Position numbers and translations under genes: made by a program. 64,000 nt of DNA from Octopus vulgaris (lineage: Eukaryota), in NCBI GenBank assembly GCA_951406725.2, contig OX597831.1, positions 27,404,001-27,468,000 on the forward strand. Direction: 5' to 3'. The notes beneath the pieces were generated by a model. The model was given only the letters and a program-made list of their open reading frames with translations, did not search any database and had not been told where the DNA came from. This document shows positions 31,033-60,420 of the stretch, in pieces (position 1 is the first letter of the stretch; every line of letters starts with the position of its first letter).

Positions 31033-31038
31033 TTTATT
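31033..31038 (-). promoter_or_regulatory. Candidate polyadenylation signal of HPDL-like gene
   Basis: First AATAAA I could find on the minus strand downstream of the stop, about 950 nt away. Confidence 0.4.
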
Positions 31039-31229
31039 TTTTGGAAAATATTCTTTAGACATTGAGGTGCTGGTGGTGGTAGTGGTTGCTGTAATGATGG
31101 TGGTGTTGGCAGTGGTGTGTGACCCCTAAGTTAGCCTTCACTCAGGAGTCTTATGACAAGGTACATTGTGATAAAGTAATGAATGAAACAAACAATAAAA
31201 AAGATTAATAACTAAAACCACCCAAGCCC

Positions 31230-31890
31230 CACTCACACTCAGTTATATCACCCAATTCCTCAATACCTCCACTTACACTTAGTTACACCACCCAACTCTA
31301 CAACACCTCTCACTCACACTCAGTTATATCACCCAACTCTACAACACCTCTCACTCACACTAAGATATATCACCCAACTCTACAACACACCTCCACTCAT
31401 ACTCAGTTACACTACTCAATTCTTCAATGCCTCCACTCACACTCAGTTACACCACCCAACACTACAACATCTCTCACTCACATTCAGTTACATCACCAAA
31501 CTCCAGAACATTTCAACTCACACTCAGTTATACCACTCAACTCTGCAGCAAACCTCCACTTACACTCAGTTACAACACCACTCCACTCAGACTCAATTGC
31601 AATTCACAAACAGCATACCTCCACTCAGATTCAATTACAATTCACACACAGCATACCTCCACTCACACTCAGTTACAATTCACTCACACTGAATTACATC
31701 ACCAAACTCCAAAACACCTCCACTCACACTCAGTTATACCACCCAACTCCTGAACACCTCCACAACACATGTCCACTCATGCTCAGTTACACCACCTAAC
31801 TCCGCAACACCCTACCCCCTCTCACACTCAATTATATCACCCAACTTTGCAACACCTTTACTCACATTCAACTCACCTCCCCACTCACCC
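31230..31890. repeat. Minisatellite (unit about 40 bp) in putative HPDL 3'UTR
   Basis: Unit approximately CACTCACACTCAGTTACACCACCCAACTCTACAACACCTC, diverged copies. Confidence 0.9.
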
Positions 31891-31983
31891 AAGTATCTAT
31901 TTAGTTCTGCATCACCACCACCACAAGCAATAATATAGGCATGTGTGTGTGTTTGAGTGAAAGTGTGTGTGTGTATGTAAGTA

Positions 31984-32155
31984 TCACACATCATGTTGTT
32001 GTTGTTGTTGTTCTGTCTGTAGCAGAGCTTGTAGGGACCTCCAGAGCGCTATGATATTGTTGGCACCAAACCCTGTGGCTCCCATTCTTTGGATGATTTC
32101 AAAGAAGAATGTGTTCACCTCAAAGATTGGTTTCGTAAACTTCTGCAGCAGATAC
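31984..32155 (-). CDS. HPDL: HPDL-like exon 5 (last coding exon)
   Basis: Acceptor ttttgcAG, phase 2. Encodes (K)[63 protein letters not shown] has the Fe-ligand Glu; GATGFG.NI.ALW is HPDL-like. Total CDS 1362 nt = 453 aa plus stop. Confidence 0.93.
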
Positions 32156-32204
32156 CTGCAAAAACAAAGACAAACAAATAAATAAATAAATAAACAAACA
32201 AATA

Positions 32205-33486
32205 GGTGTTGGCATGGCTGTGTGGTAAAAAGTTTGCTTCCCAGCCATATGGTTCCAGGTTCAGTCCCACTGCTTGGCACCTTGGGCAGGCAAATGTCAC
32301 CTACTATAGCTTCAGATCAACCAAAGCCTTGTGAATGGATTTGATAAGCAGAAACTGAAAGAAGCCCCTTGCGTATATGCGTGTGCTTGTGTCTGTGTTT
32401 GTCCTCCACTCACTGCCTGGCGACTGGTGCGGGTGTGTTTATGTCCCCATAACTTAGTGATTTGGCAAAAGGGATCGATAGAATGAGTACTGGGGTTGAT
32501 TTATTTGACTAGAATTCTTCAAGGTGGTGCCCCAGTATGGCCACAATCTATTGACTGAAACAAGTAAAAGATAAAGCAAACAAACAAGTATATATATGTA
32601 AATAAAATTATATATATGTAAATAAAATATATATATAAAAAATAAAATATATATATAAAATCTATAAAATCATCATCATTGTTTAACGTCCATTTTCCAT
32701 GCTGGCATGGGTTGGACGGTTCAACTGGAATCTGGGAAGCCAGGAAGCTGCACCAGGCTCCAGTCTGATCTGGCAGTGTTTCTACAGTTGGATGCCCTTC
32801 TTAATGCCAACCACTCCATGAGTGTAGTGGGTTCTTTTTACATGCCACTGGCACGGGTATCTTAACTACAATTTCCAAAAAGAATAAAATATATATGTAA
32901 ATAAAATTAACACTTTGCTTGTCTTGTGTATCACATGTGACATACAGGACGTGTTTCCCTGATGTCCATGTTTCACATATGATACACATTTTCAATTATT
33001 TTCACCCACCAGAGTAACCTGGGACTTAAAGCTTTATATTACTCAAAACATATGAAAGAGGGCTTAACAAAAAGTCTGAAAACAAGCATAAAGATTTAAG
33101 GATTTAAGGTGCAGGAGTGGCTGTTTGCTTACCAACCACATGGTTCTGGGTTCATTCCCACTGCGTGACACCTTGGGCAAGTGTCTTCTACTGTAGCCTC
33201 GGGTCGACCAAAGCCTTGTGAGTGGATTTGGTAGATGGAAACTGAAAGAATCCAGTCATATATATATATATGTGTGTGTGTTTGTGTGTATTTGTCCCCC
33301 CAACATCGTATGACAACCGATGCTGGTGTGTTTATGTCCCTGTAACTTAGCAGTTCAGCAAAAGAGACCGATTGAATAAGTACTAGGTTTCCAAAGAATA
33401 AGTCCTGGGGTCGATTTGCTCGACTAAAGGCGGTGCTCCAGCATGGCTGCAGTCAAATGACTGAAACAAGTAAAAGAGTAAAAGAG
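32205..33486 (+). mobile_element. Two SINE family A copies (about 32205-32575 and 33108-33486) with an RTE tail between them
   Basis: Colinear with family consensus; within HPDL intron 4. Confidence 0.8.
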
Positions 33487-34289
33487 GCAAAAAGATTAAT
33501 TCTCTGTTTGTTATATTTCAGAAGAAATTTATCGAGTGTCCTTGTAATGTTTTCTCATTGTTGCCCCTGTGGCAAATAATAACTACTATTATTGATGTGG
33601 TTGTTTAACCCTTTGCCTGCCCTACATATCACATGGTGATAAGCAGAGAACACATTAAACCTACATAGTACCTATATAAATAGGACTAATTGAGCTGTTT
33701 CTCTGCAAATTGGAAAAATTATGAACAACAATAGATTTTCAAATCTTATTGGGATCTCATCAGAGGCATTTTGCATCAATCTGATCCATCCCAGAGAAAC
33801 AAGCAGCCAATCTGTTTATATATCAAACAATTGCAGTTGCTAGGGAAACCTGGGATTACTAACTTGCATACCATTAGTGTTAGCACTCTTTTTTAAACAT
33901 CAGGGGCCTGTCAATTCATTTTCACCCACCAGAGTAACTTGGGACTTAGGAAGAGAAAGCTTTATATTTATTGAGAACATATGAAACAAGAGCTAACTAA
34001 ACATGGACTTTTCGGACAAAAGTATGAAAATACTTTGGACAGGCAAAGGGTCAAATTAGATAAAAATATTCCCCAAAATCTGAGGTTTTGATTTTGTTGT
34101 AACAGTTGAGCTCTCTCTGGCAAAACAAAAGTAAAACAGACAAAAATAACATATTCAAAAATCCCGTGAGGTTTCAACTAGGGTTATACCAAAGCCCCCC
34201 CCCCCCACAGATGGGGTGTAAGGAGGGTGTTAACAATGCCAAGGAATCAAAAGACAGTTTTGGGAGGTTCACTGAATAGTAACAACAAT

Positions 34290-34513
34290 AATAATAGATT
34301 CTGATTTAAGCACAAGGCCAACAATTTTAAGAGTAGGGGATTTGTTGATACCATCAACCCCAGCACTTGACTGGAACCTTAATTTATTGATTGTTAAGGG
34401 ATGAAAGGTCAAGTTGACCTCAGCGGGATTTGAACACAAAATGCAGAGCTGAAATAAATACCACAAGGCATTATATCCGAATTTCTGATGATTCTGTCAA
34501 TTCACCTTCTTAT

Positions 34514-34557
<44 letters not shown>

Positions 34558-37325
34558 TTGAGCTGGCAGAAATGTTAGCACACTGGGCGAAATTCTTAGT
34601 GGTATTTCGTCTGTCTTTACGTTCTGAGTTCAAATTCCACTGAGGTCGACTTTGCCTTTCATCCTTTCGGGGTCAATAAATTAAGTATCAGTTGTGTACT
34701 GGGGTCAATCTAATCAACTGGCCTTCTCCCCAAAGATTTCAGGCCTTGTGCCTAGAGCAGAAAATAATAATATAAGTCGACCTTAGTGGAATTTGAACTC
34801 AGAGTGTAAAGCATATGGTGTGCTGAGAAGAAGAAAGAAGAACACTTTCCAATTTTTGCCAGCAGTTTTTTTTTAAAGATGGTTTCAGCAGGATTTGAAC
34901 TCAGAATGTTAGGAGCTAGAACAAATGTTAAGCATTTTGTCTGATGTGCTAACAATTCTGCCAGCTTAGTTTCTCACTTAGGCACAAAGCAACAAAATGT
35001 TTTTAAAGGACAGGCTTAAAGCTGGTGATATTGACCCCAGTATTTGACTGGTATCTATTTTATCAGCTTCAAAATTCAAGTTGCTACATGGTCACTAAAC
35101 TTGCTAGAAATAGCAGCTAAATCATGCTCATATCATACTTACAACCTTACAAATTAAAGCCGTTATATTATGTATTTTGGTGTACATGCCTAAAAGTAGA
35201 TGGGATGATCAAATCTGGAATATCTTTGATCATAAGTCTATTCTATCAAGGCTGATTTAGGATTAAAAAAGAAAAAAAAAAAACTAATAAATTTGAAAGA
35301 ATGAAATACAAAGGGAACCTCAGCAGAATTTGAACTTGGAACATGAAGGGAGATAACTCTATATCTCCCAGTATAATAATAATAATAATAATTGTGTACA
35401 GTGCTCAGGTGCACTACAACTCATCTAAAGTGTATATATAATCAGGTGTAGTTTCGGCGGATTTCGGAAAGCATGAGGGCCTTAAAAGGCGTGCTGGCAG
35501 AATCGTTAGCACGCCGGGCGAAATGCTTAGCGGTATTTCGTCTGCCGTTACGTTCTGAGTTCAAATTCCGCCGAGGTCGACTTTGCCTTTCATCCTTTTG
35601 GGGTCGATAAATTAAGTTCCAGTTACGCACTGGGGTCGATATAATCGACTTAATCCGTTTGTCTGTCCTTGTTTGTCCCCACTGTGTTTACCTCATTCTG
35701 GGTAGTAAAGAAATAGGTATTTCGTCTGTCTTTAAGTTCTGAGTTCAATTTCCGCCGAAGTCGACTTTGCCTTTCATCCTTTCGGGGTCGATAAATTAAG
35801 TACCAGTTACGTACTGGTGTCGATCTAATCGACTGGCCCCTCCCCCAAAATTTCGGGCCTTGTGCCTAGAGTAGAAAAGAATAATCTTAATTCTCTCTAA
35901 TTTTGGCACAAGGCCAGAATTTTTGAGGGAAGGGGCAAGGATAAAAGGCAAGGTTGATCTTGGCTGGATTTGAAATCTGAGCGTAAAGAGCTGGAATAAA
36001 TGTTGCTAAATATTTTGTCTATTGCTCTGAGAATTCTGCCAGTTCCTCACTCTAATAATAATAATAATAATAATAATTTCAAATTTTGGCCTAAGGCCAG
36101 TAAGTTTAGGAGAGGAATGAGTCAATTACATCGACCCCAATGTTTCACTGGTACTTATATTATTGACCCCCGAAAGGCTGAAAGACAAATTCAAACTCTG
36201 TGGAATTTGAACCCAGAATGTAAAGACTGATGAAGTGCTGGTAAGCATTTGACCGGGCATGCTAATGATTCTGCCAGTTTGCTGCCTTCATAATGGTCTC
36301 AGATTTAGGCACAAGTAATTTTAGGCCAGTAATTTTGGAGGAGGGGGTTAGTCAATTACATCGATCCCCAGTATTCAACTGGTACTTATTTTATCAATCC
36401 CAAAATGATGAAAGGCAGAGTCTACCAGTTCTGCTAGCTCACCACCTTTATAATAACAATAATTCCTTTTATTTCCACAAGGGTAATAAACTCCATAAAT
36501 TTATAGAAGCAGGGTATATATTTAAATACTTTTTTATATCTTGGTAGAACTAGAATATATATTTACTTAACTGCCTCTGTACTCTTTTCGTGTGGTACTC
36601 TGTATCGCTTCTATGTTCTGTTAGGTACTCTGTGTGCCTCTTCAACAACATTGTCATACCATCGGCAATATATGTGGCGGAAACATGGAAGACATTGGCA
36701 AAGATACTGCGAAGGCTCAATGTATTTCAACTGCAATACTTCTGGCGGATACTGTGAATATCATACGAGGACCACATCACCAACGATGAGATACATCGCT
36801 GAACTGATACCCATCTACTCCATGACGTTGTCACTGAGCACTGCTTACAATTCGCAGGCCATGTACTCCGATTACCATCTGGTCAAAGGAAACCTGCTCA
36901 ACAAATTCCATCTGATGCACACAAGCATGGAAATGTGAACATTAAAACAATGTCGATGAAGATGAAGAATTTAGTATAACAACTTTGTCCTTATTAAGCT
37001 GGTACTTATTTAATCAACCCTGAAAGGATGAAAGGCAAAGTTGACCTCAGCAGAATTTGAACTCAGAACATAGCTGCAGACGAAATACCTATTTCTTTAT
37101 TACCCACAAGGGGCTAAACATAGAGGGGACAAACAAGGACAGACATAGATATTAAGTCGATTACATCGACCCCAGTGTGTAACTGGTACTTAATTTATCG
37201 ACCCCGAAAGGATGAAAGGCAAAGTCGACCTCAGCAGAATTTGAACTCAGAACATAGCAGCAAACGCAATACCACTAAGCATTTCACCCGGCGTGCTAAA
37301 GATTCTGCCAGCTCACTGCCTTGAA
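34290..37325. mobile_element. Dense cluster of SINE family B copies in both orientations (HPDL intron 4)
   Basis: Plus: about 34560-34765 and 35488-35882. Minus: about 34300-34510, 36080-36290, 36300-36450 and 37000-37322. Confidence 0.85.
36630..36830 (+). mobile_element. Degenerate RTE LINE fragment
   Basis: FNNIVIPSAIYVAETWKTLAKILRRLNVFQLQYFWRIL*ISYEDHITNDEIHR, matching the RTE YGCETW...RRIL.I.W.D.ITNEEV region. Confidence 0.8.
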
Positions 37326-37482
37326 TGCCAACTCGCCACCAAGGCAATAAAATAAAGTACCACTCGAGTACTGGCGTCACTGTAATCGTCTCACCCTTCC
37401 CCTCAAAATAGCAGACCTTGTGCCAAAATCAGAACCATTATTTCTTGAAGTGTCAGTGATTGCATATGAGGCTGCCTTATCG

Positions 37483-37818
37483 GTTGTGGTGCTGTTGTGT
37501 TGTTGTTTAACCCTAGTACAGCCCTGATAGAGTAACCAGACCTATGACCAAAGACATCCCATTGTAATTGAGTGTGAGTGAAGGTATGCTGTGTGTGAAT
37601 TGTAATTGAATCTGAGTGGAGGTATGCTGTTTGTGAATTGTAATTGAGTCTGAGTGGAGTGGTGTTGTAACTGAGTGTAAGTGGAGGTTTGCTGCAGAGT
37701 TGGGTGGTATAACTGAGTGTGAGTTGAAATGTTCTGGAGTTGTGGTGCTGTTGTGTTGTTGTTTAACCCTAGTACAGCCCTGATAGAGTAACCAGACCTA
37801 TGACCAAAGACATCCCAT
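37483..37818. repeat. 80-bp perfect direct repeats enclosing an inverted copy of 31499-31679
   Basis: 37483-37562 is identical to 37739-37818; 37561-37741 is the reverse complement of 31499-31679 with 4 transitions. Confidence 0.95.
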
Positions 37819-37840
37819 ATAACTCAACAGCCATACTTAC

Positions 37841-37959
37841 TTTGCCTTTTTGTCACCGTGGGTTTTGTCATTACCATACTCAACATCAACCAAGATACCG
37901 AGGTCTTCCAGTCTTGAAACTGATTCCTTCATGTTTAAATCTTTCAACATTCCATTTAT
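37841..37959 (-). CDS. HPDL: HPDL-like exon 4 (not in the ORF track)
   Basis: Acceptor ttatattccAG, donor AA|GTAAGT. 119 nt, phase 0 to 2. Encodes INGMLKDLNMKESVSRLEDLGILVDVEYGNDKTHGDKKA, with the family GILVD motif. Confidence 0.9.
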
Positions 37960-38557
37960 CTGGAATATAAAATATTGTTTGTTGGTACCAGTAGTATCGG
38001 GTATTGGTGGTGGTTGTAAGGGTAGAAATGGTGAGGGTTGTTGTATTATATGTATGAGTAGTAGTAGTGTTAGTGGTAGTAGTCATTTTGGCGGGGAGGC
38101 AGTGGTGGTGGTGATAATGATGAAGATAGGTGGTGGTAGTAGTGGTGGTGGTGATGATAGCGATGGTGAAGGTAGTGGTAGTGGTGATTGTGATTGCAAT
38201 CTTGATGGTGATTATGATGTTGAGGATAGTGGTGGTGGTGGTAGTTGTGATTGTGATGATGGTTAGGATGAATATGGTGGTGGTGGTTGTGATTGCAATA
38301 ATGATGGTGATTATAATAATAATAATAATAATAAAACATTGTGTACAGTGCTCAGGTGCACTACAACTCATCTAAAGTGTATATATAATCAGGTGTAGTT
38401 TCGGCGGATTTCGGAAAGCATGAGGGCCTTAAAGGATGCATCATTATGATGATGAGGATAATGGTGGTGGTGGTTGTGATTGTTAATGAGATGATTATGA
38501 TGATGTAGTGACTGTGATGATGGTGGTGGTGGTGGTGGTAAATAAATTATAATCCAC

Positions 38558-38709
38558 CTCTTTGTAATAAGTATGTGGAGGGTCCACAAACTGTAGACCC
38601 TGTTGCTTCAGACGGCTGACAGTGTCGACTATGTTCCCTGTATGAAGGGCAACATGCTGGATCCCTGGACCTTTGTGATCCTTCAGAAATGTGTCCACTT
38701 GGTTTGGTT
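38558..38709 (-). CDS. HPDL: HPDL-like exon 3
   Basis: Acceptor tatcatttcAG. 152 nt, phase 1 to 0. Encodes (E)PNQVDTFLKDHKGPGIQHVALHTGNIVDTVSRLKQQGLQFVDPPHTYYKE; GPGIQHVAL has the second Fe-ligand His. Donor GAG|GTGGAT is weak. Confidence 0.92.
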
Positions 38710-40334: not shown

Positions 40335-40700
40335 CAAACAGATAGATAGATTGATAGAACCAGGCAAGGAGCAAGAAATGAAGTAGGCAGGGAGGGGGGG
40401 GGGGGTCAATGTCCCTGACCTTTGTTGGTCACAGTTCCAGATTGTAACATTTGCTCTAACATAGACTGTAATCAGACGAACTGCTAGAAATAGCAGCCAA
40501 ATCTCAAATCACATCCCATCATCTTAGATAAGCACATGCTGGATAATATAGGCCAGGGCTCCTTGCACATAAGGAAAAGATGGGATGATCAAAGTTGGAT
40601 TGTCACAGATCAAAGGTCTGCTTGATCAGGGCTGACCCAGGGTTAAAAAATAACAACAACAACAACAACAACAACAAAAATAACAATATATCATTTTTAC

Positions 40701-40912
40701 CTGAGTCTTTCAAGCTTTCAGCGATGACAAATAGCAATTTATTACATCCATCATCGTCATCATCATTGACACCCACATCACCATTGCTGTGATGGTGAAG
40801 TGTTGTGTTGGAGGAGACCCCTGTCTCAGCACACTTCCAGTACTCGAAGGCCTTCAAACGGAGGGCCATGTTTGGAAGGTTGATCACAAAGCCTTCTCCA
40901 TCATCTTCTGCA
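40701..40912 (-). CDS. HPDL: HPDL-like exon 2
   Basis: Acceptor ttatttgtcattgtAG, donor TCAG|GTAAAA. 212 nt, phase 2 to 1. Encodes (S)AEDDGEGFVINLPNMALRLKAFEYWKCAETG...KLLFVIAESLKDS. Confidence 0.9.
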
Positions 40913-45458: not shown

Positions 45459-48114
45459 TTATTGAGAAATAATTAGCGACAAACGACACCACACAACGTG
45501 ACCGTTCATTCACTGATTCAGTTTTGTTCTTGGAGAGTAAGTAGACCAACAGAGTTATCCCCCCTTAAGGTATGAGAGAACCAACAAGGAATGGTGCGAT
45601 TCCTCAACTGAACAGAAATATGGTTAAAGCCGTCAATGTCATTTGCCAGGTATGATAATTCTTTTAATTTCTTCCCCAACAAAAGCCCTACTCAAAACCT
45701 TAAAGTTTCCTACTCATCGACATATTCTGTCAATAATATTGTATGGGTAAATGTTTACTTTTCTTCTTTTCTTTTTTGTTTCGTTTTCAGAGTTTTTTTT
45801 TTTTCGACCGTGTCTAACGTTTATTACTTTTCTCTGGGATTCTACCTTCCAATTATTGTTTAGCCCCTAAGTCAATTATTTCACATTATCGAGGGCTGTG
45901 GTGAGATGGTAGGGTGTGATTTGAGGAAAATTTGGGTAGTATTTTTAGCAAACATCAGTGGTGACGTTTGTAAGTTACTTAAAAATAAGCAGACCCTTGT
46001 ATTACTTCCCTGGCCAAGTTTTGGACGTTTAGCAGCAAGATCATCCACTATCTTTTCTAACAATAAACTTCGGGCACTTTTGTGAATTCAAAACTTCATT
46101 TATGGACGTGTAGCACCCATGACTTTTGGAAACATTGTATCACAACCAGAATTGCCGATGTATGGATGGAATAAACTTCTCACGCCAGTTAATTGTCAGG
46201 ACACCTGAAACTTTCGAAAGTTACACGCTTTCTGAAGTTCACCAACACTGCTCTTGACTAGCCTATGCACCTTTCTTCTTTACGACCCTCTTAATATTCA
46301 CTTTTTTTTCTTGTGTTTTATTTTGTGTACTGTGTATGTACTTCTAGCTTTCACGGCTGCTTTCTGTTCCCTCTTTTAACCGTTTTCGATAAGTTGTATG
46401 CACGCGAGCACTGTATATGTTAAGTTCATTTATTAAGCATACCTAAACATTTGCACGCCACCCGACTTCATTTCCTCATAATTTCCAGAAAAATGGATAT
46501 TTTTTTAATGAAATTTTCTATAAACACGCTTCAAATGGTGTAGATTCCGATAATATCGGAATTTATAGTGGGAAGAAGAGTTTCGGAAAATTCCCACGTG
46601 TTGGCTTTCAGAAAAAATCGCTTGGCAACCGATGCTGGTGTGTTTACGTCCCCGTAACTTAGCGGTTCGGCAAAAGAGACCAATAGAATAAGTCCTGGGG
46701 TCGATTTGATCGACTAAAAGCGGTGCTCCAGCATGGCCAAAGTCAAATGACTGAAACAAGTAAAAGAAAGCAAAAAATTGTCTGGAAGTTATGATGCAAC
46801 AAATTCGGCGGGACCACGTGGAGGTATAGCCATTATTATTTAGTTTATTTTGTGTATCGGCTGATGATTGTGCTGGTTCAGGATGTGAATGTGCACCTTT
46901 GTGCAAAGGAGATATACCTAACAGCAGGTGTATTGACAGCACGTATAGTATGTATATTATCAGTTTTGTCTGTGCACGTATTTGTGTGTATTAATGCGTG
47001 CTGTATGTGTGTGTGTGTGTGTGTATGGAGGGACGTGCCTTTCTTATGAGTCAAGCAACAGTATAGCAACTCAGTTATCTAGGAAGACAAGGCTAGACGT
47101 AGTACAGTACTTACAGTAACAGATAACTATTACTGGGGTCGATATGACCAGCTATATACTCCGTCATAAACCTGTGATCTTGTACCTACATTAATGCTCA
47201 GACCATACCGAGCTCGATAAAAGCTGACAGAATCATTAGAGCATCGGATAAAAATGCTGTGCGGTATTCTTAACTCTTTACATTCTGAGTTCAGATCTTG
47301 CCCAGGTCAACTTTGCCTTTCATCCTTTCAGAGGCAATGAAATAAAGTAACTGCCAAGTACTTGGGGCGATATAATTGATTAATACCCCTCACCTACCTA
47401 AATCGAAACAAATTGTTTAAAAGGCGGATGAGCTGGCAGAATAATTTGCGTGCCGGACAAAATGCTTTGCGGCATTTCGTCCGTCTTTACGTTATGAGCT
47501 TAAATTCCGCCGAGGGCGACTTTGCCTTTCATCTTTTCGGAGTCGGCGAAATAAGTACCAGTTGGGGGTACTGGTTTCGATGTAATCGACTGACCCCTCC
47601 ACCAAAATGCCAGGCCTTGTACCTAGAGTAGGAAGAATTATGATTATTTAGGACAGTGGAGTAGTAGGTGTCGATAAAGAATCGTACAAAACGACTTGTG
47701 TATGTTATGTCTATGTTCTGCGTTCAAATCCCACTGGCTGAGTTAAAAATGATTTTAAATGCAAAATAAGTTGAAGCGGTTGATCCCCCATCTTCAAAAT
47801 GTTTAGCAACGGGTCTTTGGAGCTACGTGACTTCAATTGGTATTTATTTTATCAACTCTGAAAGTTTAAAAGGCATAGTCGACCTCAGCGGCATTTGAAC
47901 TCTGAACATAAAAAGCCAGAAGAAATGTCGGTAACACGAGCGTAGCGGGTGGTGGTGGGGACACTTTTCATTCTGTTGTAGGCTAAAAGCCAGAATAGAT
48001 AAATATTGAAATAATACGGTATGCGATAATTTCCGATATTATAAAAAATTACTGTCCTCTCGAATTAGGTTTTTGAGCAGAACTTTTTTTGGCGAAGTTT
48101 CGCATGTCGTAAAT

Positions 48115-48938
48115 CAGATTTCCGTCGATTTCCGTAAAAAACTTTTATTTTTTTACATAAGTAATGAGAGCGAAAGAGACTAAGAGGAAGCGATTTTACG
48201 ACGAGAAGGTTTCACTTTGAAGTCGGCCTGTGTGTGTTTGATGGGGTGTGGGAGACAGACAGTATGTTGTGTAAGTGAAGTGCTTCTGTTAGTGTGTGCG
48301 AAGAGACAGAGAGAGTAATGTGTGAAAGAGAGAGATAACTGATTTTTTACTCGGTGTATGTGTATAAGTATGTATGCATGTATGTGTGTGTGTGTGTATG
48401 TATCTATGTATGTTTGTGTGTGTAAGTATGTGTGTGTGTATGTATGTATGTATGTATGGCCGATTCATCGTAATTTTTTACTCGGTGTATGTGTATATGT
48501 ATGTCTGCATGTATGTGTGTGTGTGTATGTATCTATGTGTGTGTGTGTGTAAGTATGTGTGTGTGTATGTATGTATGTGTGTGTGTATGTATCTATGTGT
48601 GTGTGTGTGTGTGTAAGTATGTGTGTGTGTATGTATGTATGTATGTGTGTGTGTGTATGTATCTATGTATGTGTGTGTGTGTATGTATGTATGTATGGCC
48701 GATTCATAGTAATTTTTTACTCGGTGTATGTGTATATGTATGTCTGTCTCTTCACACACACTAACAGAAGCACTTCACTTACACAACATACTGTCTGTCT
48801 CCCACACCCCATCAAACACACACAGGCCGACTTCAAAGTGAAACCTTCTCGTCGTAAAATCGCTTCCTCTTAGTCTCTTTCGCTCTCATTACTTATGTAA
48901 AAAAATAAAAGTTTTTTACGGAAATCGACGGAAATCTG
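48115..48938. repeat. 196-bp near-perfect inverted repeat around a (TG/TATG) tandem block
   Basis: 48115-48310 versus 48743-48938, 1 mismatch; followed by a 20-bp tandem duplication TGCTACTACAACCGAAACTA. Confidence 0.93.
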
Positions 48939-48994
48939 TGCTACTACAACCGAAACTATGCTACTACAACCGAAACTATGCCCTTTTTTTAATA

Positions 48995-53786: not shown

Positions 53787-54493
53787 CTATTCACATAAAA
53801 TCGTTTCATGCCGAACGCATTTTCATACCAAGCGATGATGTCCTGTGAAGTATCCACCTCAACGGCGAACGTAACGTGGTCAACATGTGTAATGCGATTC
53901 CTCGGTGGTGTCGGCGGTCGAATCTCGTCGTATCCATCGTCCGTTTTTACATCCTGTCGCCGGATCGACGTGAAACCGGGTAAGAAAAACCCGCTGTAGT
54001 GCTGTCGTTCGACTAACGTGTGCACGACGTTGCCGAGACACGATCTCACCATGGCTACTTTCACTTCTCCGTCGGCATCGGACAAAACCGTCACCGGTTT
54101 CTCCATCTTGGCACCACATCTCTCCAACCTTTCCACCTGTCGCTGGATGTCCTTCACAGTCAGACACACGTTGAACACGCTGTTTCTAACCGGCCTTCCA
54201 CCTTCATCCACGTCCTGGTCCCATAGAACTAAATAAGGGTCATTTGCTATCGCCTCGTCTCGTTGCTGGTCCGAGTGAGCGCAATTTTGTTGTTCTTGTT
54301 CCGGTGGTGAGCTGCGTATTTCGGTGACCAGCAACTGCACCCAATCGTTGGCTCTCACTAGCCATTGTCGACTGTGAACCGTCTCCCTGTAACCAGCTCG
54401 ATATAGCCCCAACTTCTTACAGAGTTCCAACACGAATTCCTCGCCGTTCTCACGTACTCCTATTTCTATGTGGTGGATGGAGTGTTGTAGCAT
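53787..54493 (-). CDS. HPDL: HPDL-like dioxygenase, coding exon 1 of 5
   Basis: ORF MLQHSIHHIEIGV...SVFNVCLTVKD...SCLGNVVHTLVERQHYSGFFLPGF...ITHVDHVTFAV...WYENAFGMKRFYVN, typical of the HPPD/HPDL family; DHVTF carries the first Fe-ligand His. In-frame TAG 9 nt upstream of the ATG. Donor AATAG|GTAAGT at 53787/53786, phase 2. Confidence 0.93.
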
Positions 54494-58619: not shown

Positions 58620-60420
58620 ATGGGATAATCTGTAGAGGTGAAGTTGTTCTTAACTATTGATAGTGTTGACTATTAAGTCATCTGTGTACAGGAATGTCCT
58701 CAGGTAACCAGTCTGAAGCCCTTCCCTTTCATTGTGACCTGGAGGACTAAAAGAAACAGCTGGGAACTGAGAACTGAATTTTGAGCCATCTTCTGGTGCA
58801 GCCATCTGGTTTGCCAGACCTCAGTCAAATTGTCCAACCCATGCTGGCATGGAAAGCGGACGTTAAACAATGATGATGATAATCTAACTGCATGTTAAAA
58901 TATTTATTTAACTCATTGCCAACTTTCACCTTGCTGGTGGTGACATCTCTGCACATGTCTTGCATGACTCTCAGTGTCAGCTATCTTTACATAGTTTTCA
59001 TAATGACCACCAGACTACAGAGTGTGAAACTGTGTCAAAGAATGCCAAGTATAGAATTTTTGTCCTTTGCTTCTGGGATTTCACTAGAAAAGAAAATGTC
59101 TGTTGTTGCCACTCATCACAAATCCCACCTGCATCGTATTTAAGTTAATTCCCTTCTTAATCAGTTGTGTTGTAACGATTTCTCTTGTTTTCATAACATG
59201 GTGAATCGATTTGATCTTTCTTGAGAATCTTTGCCTTCACAGCAGATGATACTGCTAGACCAGTCAATGGGTATCGACATCTCATTTTACCACCTTTGTC
59301 ACTTGGTGAATGAAAAAGCCCACCTAACTTTTCCTGGTAGTCTAAGCTGATTACTTTGACTTTATATCATTCATTGCACTTTCTACTATATCACTGTCAA
59401 TTCTAATAGCAGGTCTCGAACTGTCCACTCTGATAGCAGGTCTTGAGCAGTCAGTTTTAATGTCTGGATCCAAGCTGTCAACTTAAATAGCTAGTCCTCA
59501 GCTGTCAACTCGAATAGCTAGACCTCGGCTGTCCACTCAAATAGCTAGTCCTCAGCTGTCCTCTTGAATAGCTAAACCTTGGCTGTCCACTCCAATAGCT
59601 AGACCTCGGCTGTCCACTCCAATAGCTAGACCTCGGCTGTCCACTCCAATAGCTAGACATCAACTGTCCACTCAAATAGCTAGACCTCGGCTGTCCACTC
59701 TAATAGCTAGACCTCGGCTGTCCACTCCAATAGCTAGACCTCGGCTGTCCACTCCAAAAGCTAGACCTCGGCTGTCCACTCCAAAAGCTAGACCTCAGCT
59801 GTCTACTCGAATAGCTAGACCTCGACTGTCCATTTGAACAGCTAGACCTTGGCTGTTCACTTGAATAGTTGGTTCTTAACCACTGACTTTAGTAGCTCAT
59901 CTCTACCTTTCAGGTTTAATAGCTGGTTCCTCTATTAGACTTAGAGTAGTCTGTCTTTTTTCCATGTATTCTCTACATTTAACAATCTCCCAAAGCTGCA
60001 TTTCCTAGCCTTCTATTGTGTATTGGCAATTTTAAGTGAGCAGCTCTCATTCTAAACATTTTCTTTAAAGATGCCTTGATTTCTACTGCTTTGGCAGTGC
60101 AGGTGACTTTACATCTATGATCCTCTCATCACAGAACATTGGGGCAAATCTCATACTTTCATTTGTTCATCCCTGATGAACATGATATTATTCCCTAGTC
60201 TATCTTTACTTCAAGTCTTTCCTTCTCTAGTTTTAATGTTTTACCTGCATTGTCATTTCATCAATATTTTAGTGTTTGTTTGAGTGGAACTTTGCTCCCT
60301 CCACAGTTCTTGTCTATGTTTCAATTTGGGTTGCCTCATAGAAAACTCTCATTCCAATTGTTCTCTCTGTTACAAGTGTCAACCTCCTCTTCCCTCTCAG
60401 TATAAATGTCTTCTACAACC
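58620..60420 (-). mobile_element. Degenerate RTE LINE reverse-transcriptase region
   Basis: Minus-strand remnants ENTW...PAIRIDSDIVESAMNDIKS...DWSSSII...MQVGFV...LYLAFFD...SVVWWSL...SKVKVGNE...LQTGYLRTFLYTDDLIV (decayed YADD). Confidence 0.8.
59395..59935. repeat. 27-bp minisatellite (about 20 units) inside the RTE ORF
   Basis: Unit GGCTGTCCACTCCAATAGCTAGACCTC; homogeneous centre, diverged edges. Confidence 0.92.

What the first reader, a model, noticed from the sequence alone, without database searches (positions are those of the whole stretch)
31499..37818. HPDL intron 4 carries an antisense copy of the gene's own putative 3'UTR: a built-in ~180-bp RNA duplex around the last exon
Seen: 37561-37741 is the reverse complement of 31499-31679 (181 nt, 4 differences, all transitions). 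It is flanked by two identical 80-bp direct repeats (37483-37562 and 37739-37818) with junction microhomology, and the structure starts about 22 nt from the exon 4 donor. The source lies 300-490 nt downstream of the stop and before the first AATAAA. Inference: a recent replication template switch (FoSTeS/MMBIR-like duplication plus inverted templated insertion) gave the pre-mRNA a gene-specific long-range duplex that loops out the last coding segment, which holds the Fe-ligand Glu. Coleoid cephalopods are known for extensive ADAR A-to-I editing, so this could act as a newly arisen editing-complementary sequence or affect intron 4 splicing and 3'-end choice. It could equally be neutral.
Basis: partly seen in the sequence, partly recalled or inferred. 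Interest (0 to 1): 0.75.

Follow-up and report, generated by a model that had tools for sequence, protein, structure and literature searches.

The report
Template-switch scar in octopus HPDL intron
A 181-base piece of repeat DNA from just behind the stop codon of an octopus HPDL-like gene sits copied backwards between two 80-base duplicates in the gene's last intron; its junctions occur in sequencing data from several samples, and it is likely an ordinary DNA-copying scar, with any effect on the RNA untested.

Summary
Observation confirmed: 37561-37741 is the reverse complement of 31499-31679 (177/181), between identical 80-bp repeats, 22 nt from the exon 4 donor of a five-exon HPDL-like gene. 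The source is part of a locus-specific minisatellite; the own-genome search found no other close copy. It is not a misassembly: junction contigs occur in 3 of 4 DNA runs, from 3 studies and two organism labels, and the fourth run's contig ends imply it. It predates a 15-bp deletion in this haplotype. Best reading: one switch-and-return copying event (FoSTeS/MMBIR-like), probably near-neutral. The RNA claim is weak. No exon is paired, so it cannot direct recoding. The arms lie 5.9 kb apart in different gene segments, where human inverted Alus fall to background editing. It ranks 10th of 79 inverted pairs in this pre-mRNA. It is, however, the only duplex that brackets exon 5 before the first AATAAA. 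3'UTR inclusion, editing and splicing remain untested. The scan noted similar scars in other genomes.

The parts
37561..37741 (-). 181-bp templated insert; on the pre-mRNA strand it is antisense to the 3' source
   Evidence: 177/181; records 23 (X4) and 31 (X5) with 0 other letters
37483..37562 (+). left copy of the duplicated 80-bp segment (piece of an old dispersed repeat)
37739..37818 (+). right copy of the duplicated segment, 22 nt from the exon 4 donor
37812..37813 (.). site where run X2 has 15 more bases; the window's haplotype likely carries a later microhomology-flanked deletion
   Evidence: table 4; paralogues continue like the X2 allele; graph simulation
31499..31679 (+). source of the insert, 305-485 nt downstream of the stop codon; putative 3'UTR
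31229..31870 (+). locus-specific 38-41-bp minisatellite holding the source; G-rich on the sense strand (GC skew 0.81)
31033..31038 (-). first AATAAA after the stop codon (use not shown)
31871..31879 (-). strong donor-like 9-mer (GAG/GTGAGT) 107 nt after the stop codon, between exon 5 and the source (use not shown)
   Evidence: ad hoc weight matrix with recalled frequencies: 7.0 versus 7.4, 4.0, 1.1, 5.6 for the four real donors
31984..32155 (-). exon 5 coding part, residues 397-453, with Glu416
37841..37959 (-). exon 4
38558..38709 (-). exon 3 (His325)
40701..40912 (-). exon 2
53787..54493 (-). exon 1 coding part (His206)
35493..37312 (.). comparison duplex inside the same intron: inverted repeat pair 35493-35806 / 36999-37312, 314 nt, 88%, 1.2 kb apart

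Best explanation
The last intron of this octopus HPDL-like gene holds a real inverted copy of 181 bp of the gene's own 3' minisatellite between two copies of an 80-bp segment, likely left by one switch-and-return event during DNA replication or repair, and likely near-neutral. Inferred path: a nascent strand copied the segment, jumped 5.9 kb to the minisatellite through a 3-4-nt core (about 13 nt imperfect) of homology, copied 181 nt of the other strand, then re-annealed through 3 nt at a point 81 nt behind where it left, so the segment was copied twice. A 15-bp deletion later shortened the right flank in this haplotype (inferred). The pre-mRNA could form a 181-bp duplex (predicted -334 kcal/mol), but only if the source is transcribed into it and only until intron 4 is spliced. 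It pairs no coding sequence and is expected to give at most low-level editing of non-coding adenosines.
For: Shown: anatomy. The source is in register with a 640-bp minisatellite, which fixes the direction of copying. In the 2.8-Gb genome only this locus matches the 181-mer (5 of 5 hits here), and the whole array has one other hit, at 69%. Junction contigs occur in X4 (234 nt, both junctions, 0 other letters), X5 (229 nt, both junctions, depth 2) and X1 (one contig per junction), i.e. 3 of 4 runs, from 3 studies and 2 organism labels. Simulated k=31 graphs reproduce the listed contig ends of X1 and X2, and those of X4 to within 1 nt; an empty homozygote would give one 310-nt contig, seen in 0 of 4 runs. 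No poly(A) tail or mobile-element ends. Literature: templated insertions with microhomology and flanking duplication are signatures of FoSTeS/MMBIR (PMC5120786, passages) and exist as germline variants (PMC8421209, passages). Against function: no exon is paired; 79 inverted pairs of 80 nt or more lie in the transcription unit and this one ranks 10th by bit score; human Alu editability decays with an 800-bp scale and is weaker across intron/exon segments (PMC4066801, passages), which gives 0.002% above a 0.25% floor at 5.9 kb. The spliced five-exon frame is open and 446/453 identical to the O. sinensis record.
Against: It has the highest identity among the 40 top pairs printed (96.9%) and is the only duplex bracketing exon 5 before the first AATAAA. 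It is present or implied in 4 of 4 runs laid, so it is common or fixed rather than rare. In X4 the insert contig has 0 differences in 234 nt while the left flank has 4 in 182 (Fisher p 0.036; 0.083 counting substitutions only), a weak hint of constraint. Octopus has high hyper-editing (PMC5625713, passages) and squid 3'UTR repeats are often edited (PMC9068888, passages), so the human distance rule may not carry over. Only one junction of one run (X5, left) meets the tool's 31-letter bridging rule, and no listed contig spans the whole structure. The 5.9-kb jump is far beyond the 100-bp range used to define MMB-TIs.
Confidence: 0.7

Rival explanations
1. The copy works as a gene-specific long-range RNA structure: it pairs with the 3'UTR minisatellite while intron 4 is unspliced, loops out the exon 5 acceptor and coding part, and tunes last-intron splicing, poly(A) choice or back-splicing into a 279-nt exon 5 circle through the donor-like site at 31876.
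For: Only duplex that brackets exon 5 before the first AATAAA, predicted -334 kcal/mol, 177 canonical pairs plus 1 G-U and 3 A-C. Present or implied in 4 of 4 runs. Donor-like site scoring 7.0 inside the loop. Conserved complementary regions lower inclusion of looped-out exons and are enriched outside circRNAs in human (PMC8052449, passages).
Against: It arose in one mutational step, and no compensatory change is seen among the 4 differences. The arms are 5.9 kb apart. If transcription runs past 31038, several repeat pairs of 160-400 nt also bracket exon 5. The O. sinensis record has the same exon 4-5 join. No RNA evidence was obtained.
Confidence: 0.06
2. The duplex forms often enough to be hyper-edited by ADAR in the 3'UTR and intron arms, but this is a by-product with no consequence for HPDL.
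For: Near-perfect duplex with 41 adenosines in the UTR arm and 66 in the intron arm, and three A-C mismatches. Coleoid ubiquitous edits lie mainly in 3'UTRs and introns over repeats (PMC9068888).
Against: Distance and the intron/exon split predict background editing in human data. No UAG triplet in the UTR arm. Not measured here.
Confidence: 0.2
3. The template was the gene's own RNA or the displaced sense strand of an R-loop: a 3' end primed on the G-rich sense sequence and was extended by a reverse transcriptase or repair polymerase (TSIP-like or L1-type templated insertion).
For: If priming began at the longer-homology junction, the template is the sense strand, which is G-skewed (0.71 in the source, -0.04 in intron 4). 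Source and target lie in one transcription unit.
Against: No poly(A) tail, no TTTT/A site, and an 80-bp duplication; class 1 TSIPs need the first two and class 2 lack duplications (PMC5110952, passages). The copy ends mid-array at microhomologies, and the opposite direction of synthesis fits equally well.
Confidence: 0.12
4. The structure is an assembly artefact: a second allele of the minisatellite was placed between duplicated contig ends.
For: The flanking repeats are 100% identical while the insert differs at 4 sites, though this contrast is not significant (Fisher p 0.32). No listed contig spans the whole structure.
Against: Both junction sequences occur in runs of three studies, and X4 (another organism label) has all four insert-specific letters. 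At most one of these studies can be the assembly's source. The window has no N.
Confidence: 0.02

Closest known systems
FoSTeS/MMBIR templated insertions, including germline MMB-TI (PMC8421209; PMC5120786; passages read)
   Same: Inverted templated copy of nearby DNA, microhomology at both junctions, copy-number gain at the insertion site, inherited as a germline variant.
   Different: The template is 5.9 kb away, not within 100 bp as in the MMBSearch definition; the event is far smaller than the clinical complex insertions; the template is a minisatellite in the same gene.
Four-point template-switch model (PMC5453318; passages read)
   Same: One switch-and-return with a reverse-complement middle fragment; returning behind the exit point explains the direct repeats.
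   Different: The authors restrict the model to short-range switches and exclude long-range ones such as this.
Templated sequence insertion polymorphisms, classes 1 and 2 (PMC5110952; passages read)
   Same: Insertion templated from another genomic place; duplication at the site (class 1); microhomology (class 2).
   Different: No poly(A) tract or L1 site; has a long duplication, which class 2 lacks; local source.
Inverted-repeat ADAR substrates (Alu pairs, PMC4066801) and conserved complementary regions (PMC8052449); passages read
   Same: Long, near-perfect intramolecular complementarity within one pre-mRNA, able in principle to loop out an exon.
   Different: Made from a locus-specific minisatellite, not a SINE family; 5.9 kb apart across an intron/3'UTR boundary; no deep conservation or editing shown.

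Membership tests
FoSTeS/MMBIR-type templated insertion | Insert is templated from an identifiable genomic source | tested here: met
FoSTeS/MMBIR-type templated insertion | Microhomology at both junctions | tested here: met
   2 and 3 nt in the window; 3 nt on the left on the longer allele; about 13 nt imperfect on the right. Such short homology is not unique to this pathway.
FoSTeS/MMBIR-type templated insertion | Copy-number gain at the insertion site (switch and return) | tested here: met
   80-bp direct repeats; the repeat forms its own contig at about twice flank depth in X1 and X2
FoSTeS/MMBIR-type templated insertion | Replicative origin (polymerase, fork collapse) shown directly | not testable with these tools
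   inferred from junction anatomy only
MMB-TI as defined by MMBSearch | Inverted template within 100 bp | tested here: not met
   5882 nt apart; definition
Four-point template switch | Middle fragment copied in reverse complement | tested here: met
   definition
Four-point template switch | Short-range switch | tested here: not met
   5.9 kb
TSIP class 1 (LINE-mediated) | Poly(A) tract, upstream AATAAA and TTTT/A site | tested here: not met
   sequence; definition
TSIP class 2 (break patch) | No target-site duplication | tested here: not met
   80-bp duplication; definition
Editing-complementary sequence for recoding (definition recalled) | Intronic sequence pairs with the edited exon | tested here: not met
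   the five exons match the antisense of the unit only over 11-16 nt at E 0.03-1, plus 17-19 nt between the CAA tail of exon 5 and a GTT repeat in intron 2; none involves the insert
ADAR substrate duplex | Both arms in one transcript, with A-to-G clusters in RNA versus DNA | not tested
   no RNA data were obtained
Conserved complementary region (PCCR) | Both arms conserved across species with compensatory change | tested here: inconclusive
   insert identical in X4 (organism B), but the source arm of X4 was not seen; none of the 4 differences is compensatory
HPDL (host gene) | Closest named relative is HPDL-like; His-His-Glu triad present | tested here: met
   P0013, named 4-hydroxyphenylpyruvate dioxygenase-like [Octopus sinensis], 446/453 identical; His206, His325, Glu416; Glu416 aligns with residue 349 of 1t47_A (its ligand role is recalled); triad described in PMC13111500. 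The name is automatic annotation; no tree against HPD was built.

The most novel reading that the evidence does not exclude
A single copying accident gave an octopus lineage a private 181-bp antisense tether between the last intron and the 3'UTR of HPDL. It has spread through the population and now controls the fate of the catalytic last exon: slower terminal splicing, changed poly(A) choice, ADAR marking, or a 279-nt exon 5 circle made through the donor-like site at 31876. It would be a datable birth of a regulatory long-range RNA structure from a gene's own 3' end, possibly templated on its own R-loop.
Probability: 0.06. Interest if true: 0.6.

Novelty: new member of a known kind. Interest (0 to 1): 0.2.

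Why it matters
As a DNA event it is a clean, read-supported invertebrate example of a known mutation class, locally uncommon (no second case in the other 1.6 Mb surveyed). It would matter more if RNA data showed an effect: cephalopod editing depends on duplexes whose origin is rarely traceable, and this one has a known source, known junctions and a rough order of events. It could also test whether the human 800-bp distance rule for editing holds in octopus. Nothing here shows such an effect.

Tried and rejected
RNA evidence: no RNA holder was listed on record. Thirteen runs guessed to be RNA held 0.31 of the sampled words. No RNA coverage of the 3' region was obtained; 3'UTR extent, editing and splicing stay open.

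In X4 only the unbroken insert contig covers 37583-37743, with no source-like contig, and the simulation matches this only when source words are absent. This could mean the source arm is diverged or lost in organism B, but contigs show presence, not absence, so it is a lead only. Zygosity of X1 could not be settled: insert/insert and insert/empty give the same contig ends, and depths of 13 and 19 against 20-31 fit either. Source-type letters at 37641 and 37703 in X1 and X2 may be collapsed bubbles and were not read as alleles.

Rejected: dispersed-repeat origin of the insert (the search skips very common words, so this is not proof of uniqueness); LINE-type retrocopy; recoding ECS; dating by the 0/80 versus 4/181 contrast (p 0.32). 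The scan for acceptors below the source found none, but its 0.8 pyrimidine cut-off exceeds the real acceptors' 0.64-0.79, so it is uninformative. The survey (618 close direct repeats, 177 with a matching spacer; middle of the output cut) was dominated by tandem arrays and high-copy repeats in the rows seen and was replaced. A look-alike at C18:60.19 Mb proved to be an 884-bp inverted duplication. A paper search for 'HPDL' with 'octopus' gave 5 listings, none relevant by title; this is the only search behind 'not found in print'. Earlier scan notes near this place: none; the 8 same-genome notes shown concern hammerhead repeats and were not used.
Full report
OBSERVATION. The structure is as described. 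37561-37741 is the reverse complement of 31499-31679 with four transitions, and 37483-37562 and 37739-37818 are identical. The insert overlaps the left repeat by 2 nt and the right by 3 nt; at the right junction an imperfect homology of about 13 nt extends the match to 191 nt. The window has no N.

HOST GENE. On the minus strand five exons (54493-53787, 40912-40701, 38709-38558, 37959-37841, 32155-31984) with GT/AG borders splice to an open 453-residue frame. It is 446/453 identical to a record named 4-hydroxyphenylpyruvate dioxygenase-like protein of Octopus sinensis; exons 1 and 3 give weak glyoxalase-superfamily hits in Pfam. Exon 5 aligns with HPPD structures and holds Glu416, consistent with the His-His-Glu triad described for HPDL (PMC13111500, passages). 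The right repeat starts 22 nt into intron 4. The source lies 305-485 nt after the stop codon and before the first AATAAA at 31038. That it is in the 3'UTR is inferred from position only.

WHAT THE PIECES ARE. The source is a slice of a 38-41-bp minisatellite spanning 31229-31870. Because it is in register with that array, copying went from the 3' region into the intron. In the 2.8-Gb own genome all 5 hits of the 181-mer are at this locus, and the whole array has one other hit, at 69%; the search skips very common words, so this is strong but not complete. The duplicated 80 bp is part of an old dispersed repeat: 11 of 13 hits lie elsewhere at 78-85%.

IS IT REAL? Of 24 listed runs, 20 held part of 37330-37990 and the best held 0.74 of the words. 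I laid 4 of them (X1, X2, X4, X5; three studies; all assembled contigs). X4, with a different organism label, has one 234-nt contig from 37534 to 37767 with no difference. X5 has a 229-nt contig at depth 2, and X1 has one contig over each junction. X2's junction contigs were not listed (about 80% of the run was read and the table was cut), but its repeat forms an 81-nt contig at about twice flank depth and its source-like contig breaks exactly at the insert's limits. Simulated k=31 graphs reproduce the listed contig ends of X1 and X2, and those of X4 to within 1 nt; a homozygous empty allele would give one 310-nt contig, seen in 0 of 4 runs. One study may be the assembly's source. Misassembly is still very unlikely.

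ORDER OF EVENTS. X2 has 15 more bases after 37812. Paralogues of the repeat continue as X2 does, so the window's haplotype likely carries a later deletion between 6-nt repeats. All repeat copies in X2 and X4 run to 81-82 nt, so the insertion exists on the undeleted background; the original duplication was 81 bp with a 3-nt left microhomology (inferred). The event is therefore older than at least one later mutation and is shared between two organism labels. It cannot be dated more finely: 0/80 versus 4/181 differences is not significant.

MECHANISM. One switch-and-return explains everything: copy the segment, jump to the minisatellite, copy 181 nt of the opposite strand, re-anneal 81 nt behind the exit and copy the segment again. 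Templated insertions with microhomology and flanking duplication are described as FoSTeS/MMBIR signatures (PMC5120786, passages), and such insertions occur as germline variants (PMC8421209, passages). It works like those events but fails the 100-bp limit of MMB-TI and the short-range limit of the four-point model (PMC5453318, passages). It fits neither TSIP class (PMC5110952, passages). The sense strand of the source is strongly G-skewed, so an R-loop strand or the RNA itself could have been the template, but synthesis in the other direction fits equally. Frequency: in 1,664,000 bases from 7 blocks (window included), 311 near-identical pairs lay within 50 kb; 17 passed low-copy, complexity and 1-kb-gap filters (2 inverted, 15 direct); 8 direct rows in one tandem array were dropped; of the 9 left only this one has long flanking repeats. 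The filter misses events templated on high-copy repeats.

RNA CONSEQUENCES. If both arms are in one transcript they could form a duplex of 177 canonical pairs, one G-U and three A-C mismatches, predicted at -334 kcal/mol. It is the only inverted pair that brackets exon 5 with its lower arm before the first AATAAA, and the most identical among the top 40 pairs printed. Against a role: no exon pairs with it, so it cannot direct recoding. The transcription unit holds 79 inverted pairs of 80 nt or more and this one ranks 10th by bit score, behind a 314-nt pair only 1.2 kb apart in the same intron. In human data editability decays with an 800-bp scale and is weaker when partners lie in different gene segments (PMC4066801, passages); the formula gives 0.002% above a 0.25% floor at 5.9 kb. 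That extrapolation may understate octopus, which has high hyper-editing and many near-perfect duplexes (PMC5625713, passages); squid UTR and intron repeats are commonly edited (PMC9068888, passages). This background also makes one more duplex unremarkable. A donor-like site at 31876, scored with a recalled matrix, leaves a 279-nt exon 5 circle possible; complementary regions are enriched around human circRNAs (PMC8052449, passages). In X4 the insert contig shows no difference while the flank shows 4 in 182 (p 0.036-0.083), a weak hint of constraint. No RNA data were obtained, so every RNA statement here is prediction.

SOURCES. All nine papers cited were seen as search-term passages only; no full texts or supplements were read, and supplements of the cephalopod editing papers may list edits at this gene. 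Earlier notes of this scan describe similar scars in other genomes; they are unchecked and serve only as leads.

VERDICT. A real, common-or-fixed template-switch scar of a known kind, with a plausible but unsupported RNA role. Interest 0.2. The functional reading has about 6% probability and would deserve 0.6.

Noticed in passing
window 48096-48310 and 48743-48957 (intron 1): 215-bp inverted arms, 96.7% identical, around a 433-nt (TGTA)n-type core: a fold-back, MITE-like element that is a much closer ADAR candidate than the finding.
   Followed up: partly
window 31865-31888, minus strand: Three GTGAGT donor-like motifs 100-120 nt after the stop codon, one scoring like the best real donor; U1 sites here could affect poly(A) use.
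   Followed up: partly
window 40610-40672: A second copy (76%) of the same old repeat that was duplicated in intron 4 lies about 30 nt after the exon 2 donor, in the opposite orientation.
   Followed up: no
window 31987-32010, minus strand: The protein ends in a CAA-coded Gln tract one residue longer than in the O. sinensis record; the gene has five coding exons, whereas human HPDL is single-exon (recalled).
   Followed up: no
L022:6401-6980 (G000:C18:27240401-27240980): About 580-bp palindromic element with telomere-type CCCTAA/TTAGGG runs inside both arms.
   Followed up: no
L042:7306 to L043:7059 (G000:C18:27505306-27515059): About 10-kb tandem array of a ~600-bp unit at 99-100% identity.
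   Followed up: no
L157:9471 to L158:5671 (G000:C18:60189471-60195671): 884-bp inverted pair, 92.5% identical, 4.5 kb apart.
   Followed up: partly
window 59340-59949: 27-bp minisatellite of about 15-23 copies.
   Followed up: no
window 37391, 37481, 37822: Single-base differences in public runs beside the structure: T>C in X1 and X2, C>T in X4, A>G in X2.
   Followed up: no
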